Part shown: positions 1 through 33,971 of the stretch, one piece after another
Numbering within the stretch: the first letter of the stretch is position 1
Layout: the number at the start of each line of letters is the position of its first letter
IMG/VR virus record: IMGVR_UViG_3300032295_000959
Location: 1 to 34,212 of that record
DNA: 34,212 nucleotides
Origin: a virus
Taxonomy: Duplodnaviria; Caudoviricetes
Direction: 5' to 3' (one strand)
The notes under the pieces: generated by a model
Told to the model about the DNA's origin: nothing
The model's input: the letters and a program-made list of their open reading frames with translations, nothing else
The model's database searches: none
Translations under genes and position numbers: made by a program

Positions 1-141
1 ATCTAGGAAATCTCTAGCCTGTTTAACCTTTATCGTTACGTCGTTTGAATGTAGATACTTCTCTACATCTATCGAGTCAGACTTGATTATCCTCAGTCTC
101 CTCGCCTCGTCTAACTCCGCTGCTCTCTGCTCCAGACTCAT
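1..141 (-). CDS. 5' part of a probable replicative (DnaB/RecA-fold) helicase, truncated by the window edge
   Basis: Hand-translated MSLEQRAAELDEARRLRIIKSDSIDVEKYLHSNDVTIKVKQARDFLD, open to position 1, RBS GGGAG. Function inferred only from position after initiator and primase Zn finger; no Walker motifs in view. Confidence 0.5.
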   Translation of the reverse strand, partial: MSLEQRAAELDEARRLRIIKSDSIDVEKYLHSNDVTIKVKQARDFLD

Positions 142-250
142 CTTCTTGTCTCCCTAGTTGGTACAGCCTGTTAATTGAAAAAACACTACCTAGCCAAAAT
201 CCCGGTGTTACTTCAGAGAATCCTAATTCAATTAGCTTGCTTTCGTTCAT
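77..250 (-). CDS. Small hypothetical protein (57 aa), not in ORF track
   Basis: ATG overlaps the upstream stop (ATGA); MNESKLIELGFSEVTPGFWLGSVFSINRLYQLGRQ...; 3' end overlaps the next gene by 65 nt. Confidence 0.45.
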   Translation of the reverse strand: MNESKLIELGFSEVTPGFWLGSVFSINRLYQLGRQEDESGAESSGVRRGEETEDNQV

Positions 251-663
251 AAATATCCTATTGCTTCGTTAATTCGCGTAAAAGCCGTTTTAAGCCGTTT
301 TTTATCCTCGGTTGATACCTGCCTACCCTCAGCCATATCAAAAGCCGCTATGGACGTAATAAGTGCCTCAAAATGGATTATTTTGAGCAGGTCTGTGGCA
401 TAGAACGGTCGCTTGACTGGTTTATTGGTTTCGCTAGGCATAAAAGATTGATCTTTAGGAAACAGATCAGTCAAGTCCATGCCTACGGCTGAAACCACTT
501 CGTAAGCGCTACAACCAGCAAAGCACTTCAGCAAAATGCGTCCGTCATCAGTCTCGGTAATCGCTAGGCTAGGACGTTTGTCCTGATGCGCTGGACAACA
601 GGCTACCCAATGTCCTCGCTTGCCTTGCACCTTCTCTAGCCGGTTTAGGAAATCGCCAATCAT
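247..663 (-). CDS. Stand-alone DNA primase zinc-binding (CHC2-like) domain protein
   Basis: WVACCPAHQDKRPSL...ILLKCFAGC motif; ATGA-coupled to the initiator gene. Confidence 0.8.
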   Translation of the reverse strand: MIGDFLNRLEKVQGKRGHWVACCPAHQDKRPSLAITETDDGRILLKCFAGCSAYEVVSAVGMDLTDLFPKDQSFMPSETNKPVKRPFYATDLLKIIHFEALITSIAAFDMAEGRQVSTEDKKRLKTAFTRINEAIGYL

Positions 664-1292
664 AGGATTCTCCTTCCGAAAGGGAAGCTCGTCGTACTGG
701 CAACCTTGATTTCATCCTCCCAACGTTGAGCATTGAGCCATGACGCAGGATGCGGAATAAACTGCTGTTCCCTAGACGCAAGATTCTGGTTAGAAATTGC
801 TGAGATGATTGTTTTCGTTAAAGCATCATCAGGCTTAAGTTTTAACCAAGCCTTAAGTGCATTAGGTTTTGCTACCTTACGAGGATAGTGTTTCCAGAAA
901 GTATCGAATCGATCAATATATTCTTTATTATTGGTTATTGGTTTATTGGTTGCGATCTGATCTGGTTCTGAAACGGTATCCATTTTGGATTGCCAACGTA
1001 TCTGATTCGCAGTCTTAGCACGATCTGATTTCAGACGAAATTTTGCTATTTCAGCATCACATCTTCTCTGATTCCAGACACCATTCTCTAACGTAAAAAA
1101 GCCTTTGAGGATTTGCTTAACGTCCTCAATAGACGCGCCAATCTTAAAAGCTAGGTATTCAGGATCGTCAGGTAGTGGAGCCTCTGTGTCGTAATACATC
1201 CACAGAAGTTTCAAATATGAAAAGGCATTTGCCTGAGATAGTGACGATGTGTCACGCAGGAAATCACCTATATGGTGTTGGTAGTAGTGCAT
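660..1292 (-). CDS. Phage replication initiator, DUF1376/YdaU family
   Basis: N-term MHYYQHHIGDF...YLKLLWMYYDTEAPLPDD; C-term FDTFWKHYPRKVAK...FIPHPASWLNAQRWEDE. Confidence 0.85.
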   Translation of the reverse strand: MHYYQHHIGDFLRDTSSLSQANAFSYLKLLWMYYDTEAPLPDDPEYLAFKIGASIEDVKQILKGFFTLENGVWNQRRCDAEIAKFRLKSDRAKTANQIRWQSKMDTVSEPDQIATNKPITNNKEYIDRFDTFWKHYPRKVAKPNALKAWLKLKPDDALTKTIISAISNQNLASREQQFIPHPASWLNAQRWEDEIKVASTTSFPFGRRIL

Positions 1293-1299
1293 ATCTTTG

Positions 1300-1398
1300 C
1301 CTTTCTCGTGTGGTAATCAACCACGGCAATCTCACAAATTAGGTGGGTCAGGCAGGACGGTGAGAAATCGTCTTTTCGAGAGCTACTCTAGCCATTCC
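1300..1398 (-). ncRNA. Candidate structured 5' leader (multi-stem with pseudoknot) of the replication initiator mRNA
   Basis: GGC(U)AG/CUGCC closing helix, GAG-UAG-CUC hairpin, CGAAAA linker, GACG-AUUUCUCAC-CGUC hairpin whose loop is complementary to two downstream sites. Confidence 0.6.
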
Positions 1399-1404
1399 CT
1401 ATGA

Positions 1405-1433
1405 ACTATACCTTTACGTTTCTTAACTGGCAA
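1405..1433 (-). promoter_or_regulatory. Sigma70-type promoter for the replication operon
   Basis: TTGCCA-17 bp-TATAGT on the minus strand; predicted start ~1398, just before the structured leader. Confidence 0.7.
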
Positions 1434-28466: not shown

Positions 28467-28804
28467 TTCTTTCCACCCCACTTGATAACCATCTCTTGAG
28501 CTTCCCCATCCTTACCCGTTACTTCTGTCCTAGCTAGCTTAGGTATATGGTACTCAGACAGCTTGTTCATTAGGTCTAGTGCCTTGTACGGGTCTTCTGC
28601 TGCGACCTCGTTTAGCCACTTGTCCATGTTAGGCGCATTACGCTCTAGTAGATTAGCAATAGCCTCTCTAACAATCGCTGTGGACTTATTAGGCACTCCT
28701 TTAGGTCTGCCCTTGCCCATGTTCGTTAGGTTTGCTACTCGTGCATCTTCCTCTACTTTACTGGTGTAATCTGTTTCCACTTTGGCATTACCTTTCGGTG
28801 TCAT
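28463..28804 (-). CDS. terS: Terminase small subunit
   Basis: GRPKGVPNK, EYHIPKLARTEVTGKDG; upstream of terL; true start may be the internal GTG. Confidence 0.78.
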   Translation of the reverse strand: MTPKGNAKVETDYTSKVEEDARVANLTNMGKGRPKGVPNKSTAIVREAIANLLERNAPNMDKWLNEVAAEDPYKALDLMNKLSEYHIPKLARTEVTGKDGEAQEMVIKWGGKK

Positions 28805-29511
28805 GCACCATAGATTTGTTGATACATATCCGGTCTGTGAGCCTTAATCCACTCTCTCGGTTCCTCATGGCATTTCTGGTAGTCCATCCCTACTGTCTGG
28901 CTTCCTGCATGATGAACATACGCCCTACTTACAAAATGCCTAAATCCCGCTTTTTGCAGGTCATGGCAAATTATATTATCTGAATACCAATTAGTGCTAG
29001 GAAACTTTGCCGTATCCCAAGCCTCTCTCGTTATCGTGGCAAATATTGGTGCTATTACCTGAGTTTCCTTAATCTTTGCCTCACTAGCCCAGTAAACACC
29101 TTCCTGCCTATCATCATGCACAGGGAATCTAATGTTCTGGTCTGGCAACACATAGTCGCTTCTTGCACCTAAGAAACCTATCTTCTGCCCGTTTTCCTCA
29201 AGAATCTGCTTATCCTCACCCAATAACTCAATAGTTTGCGGATTCAGAACAACATCATCGTTAGCCACGATCAATGAATCGACTGCGATCCTTCCAAAAA
29301 CGTCGCTGATGGCCTCATTATATGAGTCTCCAAAATTTCTACCAGTATTGGGTCTGACGATAACATTGGGAAGGATTCGTTTGAATCTCTCTCCTCTGGC
29401 AACGTCAACACTATAAATGTAAACCGGGATGGTAGGTGCATATACCTTGATGCTCTCCAGCAATACCGAGATACCCGGATTGCTTACGTGACAAATGACT
29501 ATGGCTTGCAT
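28801..29511 (-). CDS. GT-A fold glycosyltransferase
   Basis: NFGDSYN, VANDDVVL, WYSD..C, AYVHHAGSQT. Confidence 0.8.
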   Translation of the reverse strand: MQAIVICHVSNPGISVLLESIKVYAPTIPVYIYSVDVARGERFKRILPNVIVRPNTGRNFGDSYNEAISDVFGRIAVDSLIVANDDVVLNPQTIELLGEDKQILEENGQKIGFLGARSDYVLPDQNIRFPVHDDRQEGVYWASEAKIKETQVIAPIFATITREAWDTAKFPSTNWYSDNIICHDLQKAGFRHFVSRAYVHHAGSQTVGMDYQKCHEEPREWIKAHRPDMYQQIYGA

Positions 29512-30026
29512 AAAACGACTCTCATGCTATCTACAGCCCTCGGAGTCCTAATTACTTCATCGTCTGGTTGCCTAGTTATTAACTTCTGACCTAGTTCTGA
29601 CAGGTCAAACGCCAATTCCTTGAGCTTAAATCCTTTTTCCCAACCTAGATACCAAGCCCAATCTGTGTAGTACAACCAGCTATTCTCGTTAAACGCTCGT
29701 ACATGAGTCGGGTCTTGCCATGCCCCTAAACTCAGGTCATAAGGTACGCTAATATGAAACTCACCACCAGACTTCAGTAAGTCATAGCAGTTTTTCATCG
29801 CAGAAACTAAGTCAGGGATATGCTCTAAAACATCGTTGGCTATGATCTTCTCGAACATCTCAGGCTGTATCGTCATCGATCCCCATCGGGTATCAATCGT
29901 AGCTCCGAAATGCACCTTAGAAATATCTCCCCACCAATCCGGGTTAGTCCTCTGCTGAATATCGGCATTGACGCAATCCTCTCGCCAATCCTTACCAGAG
30001 CCTAAATTAAGCGTTACAGGCTGCAA
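29499..30026 (-). CDS. Class I SAM-dependent methyltransferase
   Basis: LNLGSG motif I, DVLEHI, LKSGG.F.ISVP, DPTH. Confidence 0.88.
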   Translation of the reverse strand: MQPVTLNLGSGKDWREDCVNADIQQRTNPDWWGDISKVHFGATIDTRWGSMTIQPEMFEKIIANDVLEHIPDLVSAMKNCYDLLKSGGEFHISVPYDLSLGAWQDPTHVRAFNENSWLYYTDWAWYLGWEKGFKLKELAFDLSELGQKLITRQPDDEVIRTPRAVDSMRVVLCKP

Positions 30027-30516
30027 TTAGCTCCTCCACCTTGTCTGAACACAGTAACGGAATTAAATCGCGTATACGCTCGTCTGCTAGCTCCCACCAA
30101 GGTTTCTTACGGAGCCTTTCTATCTGGCTCAACGTAAACCGGAGCTTGATAACCTTAGCCGGATTACCACCGACTATTGCATAGGGAGGAACGTCTTTCG
30201 TTACGACGGATTTCGCAGCAACAACAGCACCATCGCCTATCGTTACCCCTGACATAATCGTGCAGCCCGATCCTAGCCAAACATCATTCCCAATAACAAC
30301 ATCGCCTTTAGTAGCTGGATGCCCTTCCCCATGATGCGGGAATTCTTCTTCATGGATATGCCCGAAAGGGTAAGTCGTTATCCAGTCTACCCTGTGGTTT
30401 CCACCGATAAATATCTCGACGTTATCGCCAATCGAGCAAAATGACCCGATTAAAACGTCTGCACCCTCTCCCCAATCTCGGACTCGGATGTTCTCCAGAC
30501 CATAGGTGTACCGCAT
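30007..30516 (-). CDS. Hexapeptide-repeat O-acetyltransferase (CatB/Vat-like fold)
   Basis: IGSFCSIG, ITTYPF, IGNDVWLG, IGDGAVVAAKSVVTKDVPPY.IVGGNPAK, WW. Confidence 0.92.
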   Translation of the reverse strand: MRYTYGLENIRVRDWGEGADVLIGSFCSIGDNVEIFIGGNHRVDWITTYPFGHIHEEEFPHHGEGHPATKGDVVIGNDVWLGSGCTIMSGVTIGDGAVVAAKSVVTKDVPPYAIVGGNPAKVIKLRFTLSQIERLRKKPWWELADERIRDLIPLLCSDKVEELIAACNA

Positions 30517-30818
30517 TACTTATTCTTGTTTCTCGCGGATATTGCTTTAGCCTTTGCCTTAGCATCAGCCTTAGAACTGGCTCCCCATGCCTTTAGGCTC
30601 AGGAGTAACCGAGTAGGCTCACCGTTTTTATATTCTGCTCCCGGCATATTGCCCATACGGGCTAGGAAACTGGCTCGACGAGGATTATCACCCGACTTCA
30701 CAGGAGCCTTTAGGTCAGAACCGGGATTAGCAGCTTCGTAAGACTTGCGACCTTTTTCATTAAGACCGCCCTTCTTGTTCTTACCCTCAGAACGCTGCCA
30801 AGCCTCAGTCTTTGCCAT
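30516..30818 (-). CDS. Basic phage protein, DUF6321-like (start revised to MAKTEAWQ)
   Basis: WQRSEGKNKKGGLNEKGR..PGSDLKAPV..RRASFLARM. Confidence 0.75.
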   Translation of the reverse strand: MAKTEAWQRSEGKNKKGGLNEKGRKSYEAANPGSDLKAPVKSGDNPRRASFLARMGNMPGAEYKNGEPTRLLLSLKAWGASSKADAKAKAKAISARNKNK

Positions 30819-30954
30819 TTTTACCCTTCTTTTTGCCCATAGGGATTTTGATTTCAATCTCTATCTCATTAACACCGTTCTTTTTCTTTTCTTTTTCTTC
30901 GTCTAGGTATTCTTTTAGCAACTCTTTGTCAGATTTCTTTCCGTTCTTCATCAT
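30805..30954 (-). CDS. Small Lys/Glu-rich protein (49 aa), not in ORF track
   Basis: MMKNGKKSDKELLKEYLDEEKEKKKNGVNEIEIEIKIPMGKKKGKNGKD; ATGA overlap. Confidence 0.7.
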   Translation of the reverse strand: MMKNGKKSDKELLKEYLDEEKEKKKNGVNEIEIEIKIPMGKKKGKNGKD

Positions 30955-31103
30955 TTTTTCTTCCCCTTCGCAGTCTTAGCAGCCTCTTTGAAAGCCTTAG
31001 CAGTCGGCGCACCTTCTGATCCCGGCTTACGCATCTTTTCCTTGCTGCCAGCTTCTATACGCTTACGCTTGGCATGAATGTTGGCATAGAGTCCGGGCTT
31101 CAT
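30951..31103 (-). CDS. Small basic protein (50 aa), not in ORF track
   Basis: MKPGLYANIHAKRKRIEAGSKEKMRKPGSEGAPTAKAFKEAAKTAKGKKK; ATGA overlaps. Confidence 0.85.
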   Translation of the reverse strand: MKPGLYANIHAKRKRIEAGSKEKMRKPGSEGAPTAKAFKEAAKTAKGKKK

Positions 31104-31264
31104 TTCTTTTTAGCCTTCTTAGCCATACCCGCCTCACTTAACATAATTGCAACGGCTTGTTTCTTGTTAGTAACTACCTTACCGCCTTTGCCGCTATGTA
31201 ATGTGCCTTCTTTAAACTCGTTATAGACCTTGCTCATCTTCTTTTCAGCTTTAGTCTTTTTCAT
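31100..31264 (-). CDS. Small basic protein, DUF6496-like (54 aa), not in ORF track
   Basis: KVYNEFKEGTLHSGKGGKVVTNKKQAVAIMLSEAG. Confidence 0.85.
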   Translation of the reverse strand: MKKTKAEKKMSKVYNEFKEGTLHSGKGGKVVTNKKQAVAIMLSEAGMAKKAKKK

Positions 31265-31541
31265 TTAGCAACCCCATCAGTTCATCCTGAAGCTCTGCCT
31301 CAGTCACACCATATCGACGTTCAAAAGCCTTACGACCTAACCCATGATAGCCAGTATTTCCTCGATGATGCTCAGGACATAAAGGCAAAACATTGTCGTG
31401 AGAGTTCCGAACTCCCATTCCTAGCCCCATACCTCGTACATGGTGAATCTCTGCTGGAGTGCCGGAATAACCATTTTTATAACAGATTATGCACCCAAAG
31501 TCAGCCACTTTAGCTAGGTATTTTCTGTCGCTTTTTCTCAT
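31251..31541 (-). CDS. Ref-family (RecA-dependent HNH-like) nuclease; start revised to MRKSDRK
   Basis: GCIIC...AEIHH.R...LPLCPEHHRG..GYH.LG.KAFE. Confidence 0.82.
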   Translation of the reverse strand: MRKSDRKYLAKVADFGCIICYKNGYSGTPAEIHHVRGMGLGMGVRNSHDNVLPLCPEHHRGNTGYHGLGRKAFERRYGVTEAELQDELMGLLNEKD

Positions 31542-31719
31542 CGATTCGCTTGGCTCTCTCAGGATCGTAGTCAGCCATATTATCCACCTCATCGCAGCTA
31601 GGGCAGTAATACATACTCTCGCCACTTACCGCACAATGACCGCCGGGAATCTCTACCCAATCATCAACGTAGCCACAAGCACAGCATTGCGCCAAATCTG
31701 AATCATCTATCTCGTTCAT
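31510..31719 (-). CDS. Acidic zinc-ribbon protein
   Basis: CCACG...CPSC; GGAG RBS before ATG 31719. Confidence 0.72.
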   Translation of the reverse strand: MNEIDDSDLAQCCACGYVDDWVEIPGGHCAVSGESMYYCPSCDEVDNMADYDPERAKRIDEKKRQKIPS

Positions 31720-31720
31720 A

Positions 31721-32536
31721 TCAATCTCCACAAAAACAATCAATTGAGTCATCTAGCATATCGATTTGTTGTCCTACATATTTGTGCATCTCGGAATAAC
31801 TAGGACGATCTTTCCGAAATCTAGCTCCTGATCCAAATGTTTTATCGCTAGTCTGAACTAAAGTTTCCATCCTAGCCCACCAGATAGCCCTCTCTGGCTT
31901 TTCTTGGATTAGGCTTAACGTCTGCTGATAGCCCTTCAAAAAGCATAAATCGCAATTGCCATGCATCGTCTTACCATTGTTATTTGGCAACATTAGGTCA
32001 AATGGTTGCCAAGCCCAAAACTCACCTACATCTTTCGCTGTGATTCCAGCAGCTACTAACGGAGTACGCTCCCTAGCAATCTTTGCAGCCCTTCTAGGCT
32101 CGTCTGCTCGAATCCCAACCCAATCCATGTTTTCGTTATGCTTCCAACCCTTAGCCTTCAGAAACTTATGAATTGACCTGATTTTTAGCTCAATGGTGCA
32201 AAACCGAGTTACAGGATTAGGTAGATATTTCTTCTTAACAATCAACTGCTCAAAAGGCTCACCGTTTCTGCTGGCTGTCTCAAACGTCACCTCAGCAAAC
32301 TTAGGATCGTCAGCCCGATATTCCACCCAATGAATCGGCACATTCCAATTTACTGAGCAGTCTCTAACAAATTCTAAGGTAGCTTCTTCCTCTTTTCCGG
32401 TATTAGCGAAGCAGACAATAGCCTCATCAGGTAGCCCATTGTTAGCCTGTAGAACCCGCCAGAGCAGGTAAGCACTTGTCCTGCCACCAGAGAAACTGAT
32501 AACTGTAGGCTCATCTATTAGAAATGGGTTTCTCAT
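31721..32536 (-). CDS. PAPS-reductase-like (PP-loop) protein
   Basis: ISFSGGRTS PP-loop, FANTGKE, RFCT.ELK, GIRADE, NCDLCFLK, C-terminal CFC. Confidence 0.88.
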   Translation of the reverse strand: MRNPFLIDEPTVISFSGGRTSAYLLWRVLQANNGLPDEAIVCFANTGKEEEATLEFVRDCSVNWNVPIHWVEYRADDPKFAEVTFETASRNGEPFEQLIVKKKYLPNPVTRFCTIELKIRSIHKFLKAKGWKHNENMDWVGIRADEPRRAAKIARERTPLVAAGITAKDVGEFWAWQPFDLMLPNNNGKTMHGNCDLCFLKGYQQTLSLIQEKPERAIWWARMETLVQTSDKTFGSGARFRKDRPSYSEMHKYVGQQIDMLDDSIDCFCGD

Positions 32537-33332: not shown

Positions 33333-33338
33333 ATTAAG

Positions 33339-33597
33339 TTTTATTTAGGCAATAGTCAGGCCAAGAAGGTGATATTCACATTCTCCAGCCATCCTAGTTA
33401 GGACTGCTGCTCCCATAAGGGCTACATTCGATTTCCAGAGCGACCGTATCGTGGCCTAACCGATCATCACCTATTTGCCCTGTTCCTGAGATACCTGTAG
33501 CAAGTTCTCGCGCTGGCCTGAAAGCGCATCCGGTTTTCTTGATAGCAACCCCGAACATGGGTTCATTACTAACGCGATCAGTACGACCTAAATAAAA
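33339..33597 (-). ncRNA. Candidate large structured RNA (~260 nt)
   Basis: 11-bp perfect terminal inverted repeat enclosing several hairpins and long-range pairings. Confidence 0.62.
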
Positions 33598-33700
33598 AAG
33601 CCCTCTAGGTTTGGCTCTCCGTGTGCGGTCACGTTCCCCATTAAAGAGGTGAGAACCAAAGCTAAAGGGCTTTGATATTTGTCTATGACCGCACATAGAT
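33594..33700 (-). promoter_or_regulatory. Attenuator-like leader: small hairpin plus long terminator hairpin with 10-nt loop complementarity
   Basis: ~23-bp imperfect stem (33597-33619/33651-33673) ending in U6; UGUGCGGUCA/UGACCGCACA; TATACT -10 at ~33708-33713. Confidence 0.68.
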
Positions 33701-33743
33701 GTCCAAAGTATAGCGTAAATTTACAGGTATGTACTTTGCCTTC

Positions 33744-33893
33744 TTAAATTCTAAATTCATTTGCTTTTAGGAAAGCTATATCTTCAGGTAATGCCATGCA
33801 AACTGCCATCATGTGCTTATCAAGGTATTTCTGAAGTTTGTCGCGGTTGGCTGGTGTAGGCACTTTGCGGTACGTATCAAGTAGCTTTTTCAT
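33744..33893 (-). CDS. Small hypothetical protein (49 aa) with its own promoter, not in ORF track
   Basis: AGGAG RBS; MKKLLDTYRKVPTPANRDKLQKYLDKHMMAVCMALPEDIAFLKANEFRI. Confidence 0.8.
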   Translation of the reverse strand: MKKLLDTYRKVPTPANRDKLQKYLDKHMMAVCMALPEDIAFLKANEFRI

Positions 33894-33928
33894 CTCATCT
33901 CCTAGTTAATCAATGCTGCTGTGAAGTA

Positions 33929-33971
33929 ACTATAGCTAAACTGATTCCAGACTGCAACATAAATATTTCTA
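33929..33971 (-). promoter_or_regulatory. Sigma70-type promoter with AT-rich upstream element
   Basis: TTGCAG-17 bp-TATAGT; upstream TAGAAATATTT. Confidence 0.72.

What the first reader, a model, noticed from the sequence alone, without database searches (positions are those of the whole stretch)
33339..33597. ~260-nt multi-pseudoknot RNA candidate closed by an 11-bp terminal helix
Seen (minus strand): UUUUAUUUAGG/CCUAAAUAAAA encloses hairpins UAGUAAU..CCC/GGG..GUUGCUA, GCGCU/AGCGC, a nested GCUACA/UGUAGC + CAGGGC/GCUCUG + GAUCG/CGGUC arm, and CAGC..GUCCU/AGGAU..GCUG, plus an unpaired AAGAAAA. The 3' segment carries long-range complements: AUCACCU to AGGUGAU, UGGCCUGA to UCAGGCCA (and UUAGGCCA), and CUAUUGCC to GGCAA(A)UAG. 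This density of pairing in a gene-free stretch of a compact genome suggests a functional RNA or ssDNA structure. Inference: a ribozyme-like RNA, or a replication-primer-type RNA as in RNA-controlled plasmid replicons. This is the best candidate for an undescribed system here.
Basis: partly seen in the sequence, partly recalled or inferred. Interest (0 to 1): 0.8.

Follow-up and report, generated by a model that had tools for sequence, protein, structure and literature searches.

The report
Knotted phage RNA, likely replication primer
This stretch belongs to a conserved, uncatalogued family of roughly 250-base phage sequences predicted to fold as RNAs with four pseudoknots; related phages lacking a complete replication-starting protein carried such an RNA in every case examined, so it likely starts DNA copying, probably as an optional second starter in this phage, which has its own replication proteins.

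Summary
The feature is real. The window is a ~34-kb tailed phage. Minus-strand 33590-33346 belongs to a family (36 distinct homologues aligned, 246-284 nt, no Rfam match) whose helices covary: 33 of 60 pairs change on both sides, and four pseudoknots hold. The 11-bp terminal helix and three other claimed pairings are not conserved. The unit extends upstream: a -10 box (36 of 37 loci) and a terminator-like leader whose two loops carry a hypervariable 10-nt complement.

Context points to replication. In phages with only the C-terminal piece of the initiator and no DnaB-like helicase, a large structured RNA sits upstream of that gene in 66 of 66 loci. Its family swaps 13 times on the gene tree and the slot is never empty. 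In the window's clade, which has initiator, primase and helicase, the cassette is optional (13 of 59 loci) but its pairing is still conserved.

Best reading (0.5): a ColE1-like RNA primer module, here a second origin. No transcript, R-loop or replicon evidence exists. Earlier, unreviewed notes of this scan reached the same idea on other genomes.

The parts
33707..33712 (-). Predicted sigma70-type -10 box (TATACT); predicted +1 at about 33700
   Evidence: TAnnnT lies 6 nt before the leader in 36 of 37 type-A loci, background 6%; not picked up by the generic scan; start site inferred
33682..33699 (-). Leader 5' hairpin; segment 33695-33686 is complementary to the loop of the long hairpin
   Evidence: Fold; in 93 distinct leaders own complement averages 9.8 nt vs 4.8 across leaders, about 29 sequence variants
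33594..33673 (-). Long leader hairpin with U-tract (terminator-like); loop segment 33631-33622 is the kissing partner
   Evidence: the hairpin pattern found 115 viral loci; termination is inferred
33346..33590 (-). Large structured RNA body (type A), about 245 nt, four pseudoknots
   Evidence: Alignment A1, covariation, model R1; no Rfam match
33529..33586 (-). 5' module shared by many body types: P2 33580-33577/33543-33540, P3 33566-33560/33550-33544, PK1 33555-33551/33533-33529, A-rich linker
33510..33527 (-). P4 hairpin; its loop (33521-33514) pairs with the 3' end 33363-33356 (PK2)
   Evidence: PK2 100% paired, 7 of 8 pairs with two-sided change
33488..33509 (-). P5 hairpin; its loop (33501-33496) pairs with 33426-33421 (PK3)
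   Evidence: P5 3 of 5 and PK3 6 of 6 pairs with two-sided change
33436..33482 (-). P6 (33482-33477/33441-33436) enclosing PK4 strand 33472-33466 (partner 33373-33367) and P7 (33456-33453/33445-33442)
33386..33421 (-). Variable hairpins P8 and P10
   Evidence: Length-variable in A1; UUCG or GNRA loop in 28 of 36
33335..33954 (-). Whole insert relative to empty-site relatives: 49-aa ORF (33744-33893) plus promoter-leader-RNA cassette (about 33721-33335)
   Evidence: L001, L002, L004, L016-L019 run from the upstream gene straight into the downstream ATG; L003 and L030 have the 49-aa ORF without the cassette, L011 the cassette without it
660..1292 (-). The phage's own full-length replication initiator (DUF1376 N-terminus, C-terminal initiator domain, three iteron-like repeats and an AT-rich run)
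7..663 (-). Primase zinc-finger gene (247-663) and start of the DnaB-like helicase (141-7, cut by the contig end)
   Evidence: 71% identity over 45 aa to a relative's helicase

Best explanation
The stretch is the structured part of a self-contained promoter-leader-RNA cassette that likely acts as a protein-free replication starter: the folded transcript is predicted to stay hybridised to its own template at the 3' end and prime DNA synthesis by host enzymes, as ColE1 RNA II does, and in this phage it would be an optional second origin beside a lambda-like protein origin. SHOWN: conserved four-pseudoknot pairing, conserved -10 box, leader with a hypervariable internal 10-nt complement and U-tract, mobility of the cassette as a unit, and the presence of some large RNA in every examined locus of phages with a truncated initiator. 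INFERRED: transcription from about 33700; most transcripts stop at the U-tract; loop-loop pairing (in cis, or in trans from terminated leaders, as P4 CI RNA does) sets read-through and gives replicon-specific control; read-through yields the folded RNA, whose last strands (PK4', PK2') lock the fold just as polymerase reaches the 3' end; R-loop, RNase H cut, Pol I extension and host helicase loading follow; the stand-alone C-terminal initiator domain of the RNA-dependent phages helps load the helicase.
For: Slot: 15 of 15 close Cro homologues are followed by a family RNA, where lambdoid phages keep the initiator and origin; 0 of 3 distant ones are. Gene content: 10 RNA-bearing records have only a 120-147-aa C-terminal initiator frame and 9 of them no DnaB-like primase/helicase match, the tenth a weak zinc-finger one; Pfam on 135 representative proteins of 100 aa or more from 7 such genomes found no initiator, helicase, primase, polymerase or integrase; 0 of 10 further records have the helicase. 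Obligate filling: 66 of 66 loci with at least 1.7 kb upstream of the truncated initiator carry a large RNA (58 by motif, 1 by model, 7 by eye; 54 distinct gene sequences), and the RNA family changes 13 times on the gene tree, minimum 3, including Rfam Betaproteobacteria-1. Dispensable where proteins exist: 13 of 59 window-clade loci have an RNA; 18 of 18 empty-slot records have the helicase; 0 of 20 such records match R1 or RF02932 (positive control 4 of 5). Leader variability resembles incompatibility determinants (PMC3035462 passages). Rep-less RNA replicons and the ARRPOF motif (255 nt, four pseudoknots) are precedents.
Against: This phage encodes initiator, iteron-like repeats, primase domain and helicase, and the RNA lies kilobases from them, yet pairing in this slot is fully kept (793 of 797 cells; 22 of 38 pairs change on both sides within the group): a function unrelated to replication explains that as well. 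A 61-kb phage with type-B RNA has its own SF2 helicase and primase. G017-G019 carry an RNA but no match to the C-terminal domain. Type A lacks the 3' G-run seen in types B and C. No conserved antisense (RNA I-like) promoter was seen by eye. R1 does not match ColE1 and no plasmid or cultured phage matches the window. The leader also precedes an HNH gene with no RNA, so it is not RNA-specific. A Betaproteobacteria-1-like hit in a Burkholderia megaplasmid has no evident replication context. The loci come from few clades, absence of genes rests on profile searches, and no transcript ends, R-loop or replicon test exist.
Confidence: 0.5

Rival explanations
1. A free, trans-acting phage RNA (GOLLD/ROOL-like; host takeover or anti-defence decoy) cut out of an early non-coding transcript.
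For: It sits in a moron-like cargo slot in the window's clade and stays conserved there; tRNA-like inserts lie before or inside family RNAs (L125, L126, L197, L219, L331), as tRNAs do around and inside GOLLD (PMC12990946 passages); own promoter.
Against: Does not explain why the slot is never empty in truncated-initiator phages yet empty in 46 of 59 loci of the helicase-bearing clade, nor why unrelated folds are interchangeable; no 3' terminator or conserved closing helix.
Confidence: 0.25
2. A cis-acting antitermination or processing element (HK022 put-like, recalled) that carries RNA polymerase through the downstream operon.
For: It lies directly behind a promoter and a terminator-like leader at the head of a long same-strand operon ending in head, tail and lysis genes; no antiterminator gene was recognised among the proteins scanned.
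Against: Close relatives run the same operon with no cassette; in several truncated-initiator phages a separate promoter-like sequence follows the RNA (by eye); it does not predict the link with missing replication genes.
Confidence: 0.1
3. A ribozyme or selfish mobile RNA element that inserts behind the leader.
For: Compact multi-pseudoknot fold with invariant unpaired residues; alternates with a NUMOD4-HNH gene at the same place; patchy presence.
Against: No Rfam ribozyme or intron match; it does not interrupt a gene; one copy per genome searched; empty sites lack promoter and leader too; never lost in truncated-initiator phages.
Confidence: 0.08
4. The structure works as single-stranded DNA (a primosome- or primase-loading signal) rather than as RNA.
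For: Same replication-slot evidence as the best reading; the 224-motif survey notes that such plasmid motifs may act as ssDNA (PMC5737381 passages).
Against: Fixed-distance promoter, UUCG/GNRA loops in 28 of 36 and G-U pairs in 9 columns on the transcribed strand.
Confidence: 0.07

Closest known systems
Betaproteobacteria-1 RNA (Rfam RF02932; typed Gene; sRNA)
   Same: Fills the same slot, behind the same leader or directly behind the promoter, in related phages; swaps with the window's family on the initiator-fragment tree.
   Different: The window does not match RF02932 and R1 does not match RF02932 loci; different sequence and helix order.
ColE1 RNA II / RNA I (PMC5043065, passages read; record NC_001371)
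   Same: Proposed logic: host polymerase transcript, folded RNA, priming without an initiator, control by small complementary RNA. The ColE1 record has G-run, CCTATG, A-run just upstream of rop (that this is the primer end is recalled); many type-B and some type-A RNAs end similarly, an untested short resemblance.
   Different: About 250 vs 550 nt; no model match; the complementary loops are on the same strand; phage, not plasmid; type A has no G-run.
MRB plasmids of Vibrionaceae and the PAGEV, ARRPOF, GEBRO motifs (PMC3035462, PMC5737381, PMC12990946; passages read)
   Same: Rep-independent replication region with structured RNA; a terminator-like inverted repeat; specificity from variable kissing loops; ARRPOF is 255 nt with four pseudoknots.
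   Different: No Rfam match to any of them; those are plasmid elements; MRB RNA I is antisense from its own promoter.
Phage P4 CI RNA / seqA attenuation (passage in PMC4825925)
   Same: For the leader only: untranslated leader ahead of a replication function, with a segment complementary to an upstream part of the same transcript.
   Different: No Rfam match; no covarying downstream target (seqC equivalent) seen in the RNA body; what follows is an RNA, not replication genes.
GOLLD and ROOL large phage RNAs (PMC5737381, PMC12990946; passages read)
   Same: Ornate, multi-pseudoknot, phage-borne, tRNA-like neighbours in some relatives.
   Different: Less than half their length; no Rfam match; link with missing replication genes.

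Membership tests
Betaproteobacteria-1 (RF02932) | Score above the family's gathering threshold | tested here: not met
   No hit in the window; slot-mates L145, L201, L546, L566, L571 score 85-103 bits
PAGEV / ARRPOF / GEBRO / GOLLD / ROOL | Match to the Rfam covariance model | tested here: not met
   cmscan of all 4227 families at gathering and at E up to 10; 40 related loci scanned gave only RF02932 above threshold
Known ribozymes and group I/II introns | Match to an Rfam model; interruption of a gene or RNA | tested here: not met
   intergenic, empty sites lack the whole cassette
Known ribozymes and group I/II introns | Catalysis in vitro | not testable with these tools
   Needs transcription and cleavage assays
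ColE1-type RNA-primed replicon | Sequence or structure homology to RNA II | tested here: not met
   R1 has no hit in NC_001371 at E up to 10; no plasmid match
ColE1-type RNA-primed replicon | Replication region without a complete initiator protein | tested here: inconclusive
   Met in relatives; not met in the window, which has a full initiator
ColE1-type RNA-primed replicon | Promoter upstream of a long structured non-coding transcript | tested here: met
   Predicted only: -10 box in 36 of 37 loci, covariation; transcription itself not shown
ColE1-type RNA-primed replicon | Antisense RNA I from the opposite strand | tested here: inconclusive
   No promoter in the generic scan at that place and none conserved by eye in A1; same-strand loop complement instead
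ColE1-type RNA-primed replicon | Persistent R-loop, RNase H cut, Pol I dependence | not testable with these tools
   Needs R-loop mapping and replicon assays
P4 CI-type attenuator (leader) | Small RNA complementary to both an upstream and a downstream site | tested here: inconclusive
   Upstream complement met; downstream site looked for by eye only, none seen
Protein-coding gene (ORF 33394-33696) | Conserved open frame or homologues | tested here: not met

The most novel reading that the evidence does not exclude
Small aquatic tailed phages have replaced the origin-binding half of the lambda-type initiator with interchangeable, ornately folded primer RNAs from several unrelated families, each under a kissing-loop leader whose variable code acts as a replicon-exclusion switch; the cassette also invades phages that already have a protein origin, as here, as a mobile second origin that competes with a homing endonuclease for the same slot.
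Probability: 0.35. Interest if true: 0.9.

Novelty: new variant of a known kind. Interest (0 to 1): 0.7.

Why it matters
RNA-only initiation is described for ColE1 and MRB plasmids (PMC3035462 says only these two, as of 2010). A family of phage RNAs doing it would widen that greatly, and would give a testable function to Betaproteobacteria-1 and, by analogy, to ARRPOF, PAGEV and GEBRO, whose roles are open. The window adds the natural control: near-identical phages with and without the cassette on a background that has protein initiation. Even if the primer idea fails, this is an uncatalogued, compact four-pseudoknot RNA superfamily with a shared 5' module, well suited to structure work.

Tried and rejected
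Rfam: nothing at gathering or credible at E up to 10. tRNA/tmRNA: none. Annotated phages and plasmids: no match for the window or for type B and C in phages; one partial type-D hit in a Burkholderia megaplasmid. The one scan of bacterial genomes used a loose pattern, covered 18 of 64 parts and returned scattered matches that looked like chance and were not screened further, so the host is unknown. Expression: contigs of 4 RNA libraries from 4 studies cover part of the leader and 5' half at depth 2-4, but the runs were chosen by this stretch, may hold DNA, and contigs give no ends or strand; two further 'RNA' runs were probably DNA, one is unlabelled, and a same-sample RNA run had nothing. Not used as evidence. 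Folding energy is weak across homologues. A shared topology of types A and B: PK3 and PK4 equivalents seen in 22 rows (some duplicated), PK2 not shown (3.8 vs 4.0). Fold of the stand-alone initiator fragment: no PDB sequence or Foldseek match; residues 79-121 resemble SAP/Rho-N-like helix pairs at Z about 5, a common arrangement; language-model neighbours are Phg_2220_C clusters at 0.90, a lead only. A suspected likeness to RNase P (recalled) got no model support. GC skew cannot separate origin from transcription direction here. Literature: searches found no paper on this family. The viral candidate-RNA survey PMC10690425 (part 1 of 5 read) lists RNAs of 29-151 nt; its alignment files could not be searched and the tables searched had no hits, and the supplement of PMC5737381 was unreadable, so fragments may be catalogued there.

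Full report
Setting. The window is a linear 34,212-base virus record, about 94% complete, with terminase, P22-like portal, head, tail and lysis genes. On the minus strand the order is initiator (660-1292, DUF1376), primase zinc finger (247-663), the start of a DnaB-like helicase cut by the contig end, then, at the other end, a VRR-Nuc/resolvase-like gene, a 49-aa ORF, the feature, and a long operon to the lysis genes. Rfam gives nothing at gathering scores or credible at E up to 10; no tRNA; no match among annotated phages or plasmids.

The structure is real. Homologues came from a neighbour-gene search and DNA patterns in IMG/VR. Of 43 members of the window's cluster, 7 were dropped (3 truncated, 4 with divergent 3' ends) and 36 distinct sequences of 246-284 nt aligned (mean identity 70%, effective number about 15). 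An unbiased scan of all column pairs put 12 fully canonical pairs at the top, 7 of them with an expected null count of 0.03 or less in my tree-based null of 30 replicates. On the named structure 94.7% of cells pair and 33 of 60 pairs change on both sides, against 82.9% and 21.9 in shuffles (0 of 500) and 33-42% for slid partners; the tool warns that related sequences can beat the shuffles. Four pseudoknots hold in register-free tests, own vs cross-sequence: 4.0 vs 2.8, 8.7 vs 4.0, 5.8 vs 3.6, 7.1 vs 4.9 Watson-Crick pairs. Folding energy alone is weak. G-U appears in 94 helix cells and A-C in none; UUCG or GNRA loops cap the variable hairpin in 28 of 36; the overlapping 100-aa frame is not conserved. 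These favour an RNA of this strand.

The unit is larger. A -10 box lies exactly 6 nt before the leader in 36 of 37 loci (background 6%). The leader folds as a short hairpin and a long hairpin with a U-tract. A 10-nt stretch of the first is complementary to a loop of the second in nearly all of 93 distinct leaders (mean 9.8 vs 4.8 across leaders), in about 29 variants. Variable but always self-matched loops are what incompatibility determinants look like (PMC3035462, passages); a same-strand version is known from phage P4 (passage in PMC4825925). Behind this leader, other phages carry other large non-coding bodies, most beginning with the same 5' module (types B, C and others; R1 hits, on loci pre-selected by that module), Rfam's Betaproteobacteria-1, tRNA-like inserts, or a NUMOD4-HNH gene.

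Two slots. Slot 1, the window's, lies behind the resolvase-like gene. All 11 slot-1 records and 2 HNH-slot records tested have the DnaB-like helicase and an initiator of 207 aa or more. Here the cassette is optional: of 59 of 80 loci with enough upstream DNA, 12 have type A, 1 another RNA, 5 the leader without an RNA motif (an HNH frame read in 4), 41 neither. The closest relatives are empty sites and delimit the insert at 33954-33335. Eighteen empty-slot records all have the helicase, and these plus the two HNH records match neither R1 nor RF02932 anywhere (0 of 20, 7 near complete; control 4 of 5). Slot 2 lies directly behind Cro (Pfam P22_Cro). All 15 close Cro homologues are followed by a family RNA; 3 distant ones are not, and the one whose record was searched has a helicase. 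Slot-2 phages have only the C-terminal 120-147 aa of the initiator, no DnaB-like helicase, and no recognisable replication protein or integrase among 135 cluster representatives of 100 aa or more from 7 genomes, five with terminal repeats. Upstream of the truncated initiator a large RNA is present in 66 of 66 loci with at least 1.7 kb of flank (of 80 fetched): 44 Betaproteobacteria-1-like, 19 of the window's superfamily (7 type A), 3 of another kind; 7 of the 66 were called by eye and 1 by the model. On the tree of that gene the RNA family changes 13 times, minimum 3. Unrelated folds are interchangeable, the slot is never empty, and the protein does not track the RNA type.

Reading. An element that is obligatory where origin-binding domain and helicase are missing, sits where the lambdoid origin sits, has its own promoter and a specificity-coded leader, and is dispensable where the proteins exist, most simply is the origin. 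The model is ColE1 (PMC5043065, passages): transcript, persistent hybrid, RNase H, Pol I, helicase loading. ARRPOF, 255 nt with four pseudoknots and needed for rep-less plasmid replication, is a close analogue in size and role. All mechanistic steps are inferred.

Against. The window has a full protein module with three iteron-like repeats, and slot-1 copies keep their pairing (793 of 797 cells, 22 of 38 pairs with two-sided change; slots assigned by flanking gene where seen, by similarity for about five rows). So the RNA does something useful, or selfish, beside a protein origin. Slot-1 and slot-2 type-A RNAs form separate clades, so their roles could differ. A 61-kb carrier has its own helicase and primase; three carriers lack the initiator fragment; type A has no 3' G-run; R1 does not match ColE1; sequencing runs give no usable expression evidence; the host is unknown. 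The gene-content link rests on few clades. Hence 0.5 for the primer, 0.25 for a free trans-acting RNA, less for antitermination, ribozyme or ssDNA signal.

Novelty. Eight literature searches found no description of this family; unreadable supplements of PMC5737381 and PMC10690425 may list fragments. After I had reached the replication-slot idea (note), a word search showed three unreviewed notes of this scan on other genomes: two propose the same role for a ~270-nt four-pseudoknot RNA and for Betaproteobacteria-1; one, on a T4-like phage, found no tie to replication. They are not independent support; one gave me the ColE1 review. Sequence look-ups did not link them to this window. What this window adds is the cassette's optional, mobile state in a protein-initiated phage and the coded leader. 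Verdict: real, uncatalogued RNA family; likely a new variant of RNA-primed replication; interest 0.7.

Noticed in passing
L125, L126, L197, L219 (between leader and RNA); L331 (inside a type-C RNA): tRNA-like hairpin elements of variable length inserted before or within the large RNA; L125 and L126 gave no Rfam hit for them.
   Followed up: no
L033:2680-2900, L224, L134, L162, L208, L148, L590-L592, L236, L259, L262, L272, L295: Further distinct large non-coding bodies occupy the same slot; those scanned have no Rfam match.
   Followed up: partly
L068:2474-3001 and L066, L067, L079, L120, L129, L146, L186, L193: A NUMOD4-HNH endonuclease gene replaces the RNA directly behind the leader U-tract in helicase-bearing phages.
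   Followed up: partly
L107:1860-2222: Stand-alone C-terminal initiator domain carries an extra ~43-residue helix-extended-helix tail absent from the window's full initiator; SAP/Rho-N-like at Z about 5 only.
   Followed up: partly
window 1293-1420 (-): The window's own initiator gene is preceded by a -10-like box and an untranslated hairpin leader, parallel in layout to the RNA cassette.
   Followed up: partly
window 33335-33954: Moron-like cargo slot: relatives carry different inserts that all end at the next gene's start codon.
   Followed up: partly
L611:1261-1559 (-): A family RNA in a non-phage-looking metagenome contig, without the leader, next to an IS3-like transposase and unassigned ORFs.
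   Followed up: partly
L610:3900-4200: Betaproteobacteria-1-like stretch in a Burkholderia megaplasmid (NZ_AP022319), intergenic, no evident phage or replication neighbours.
   Followed up: partly
L128, L189, L253, L255, L614 3' ends: Type-C RNAs end in long G-runs, a candidate R-loop or G-quadruplex anchor.
   Followed up: no
window 28801-32536 (-): PAPS-reductase-like, hexapeptide acetyltransferase and methyltransferase genes lie between the RNA and the terminase.
   Followed up: no
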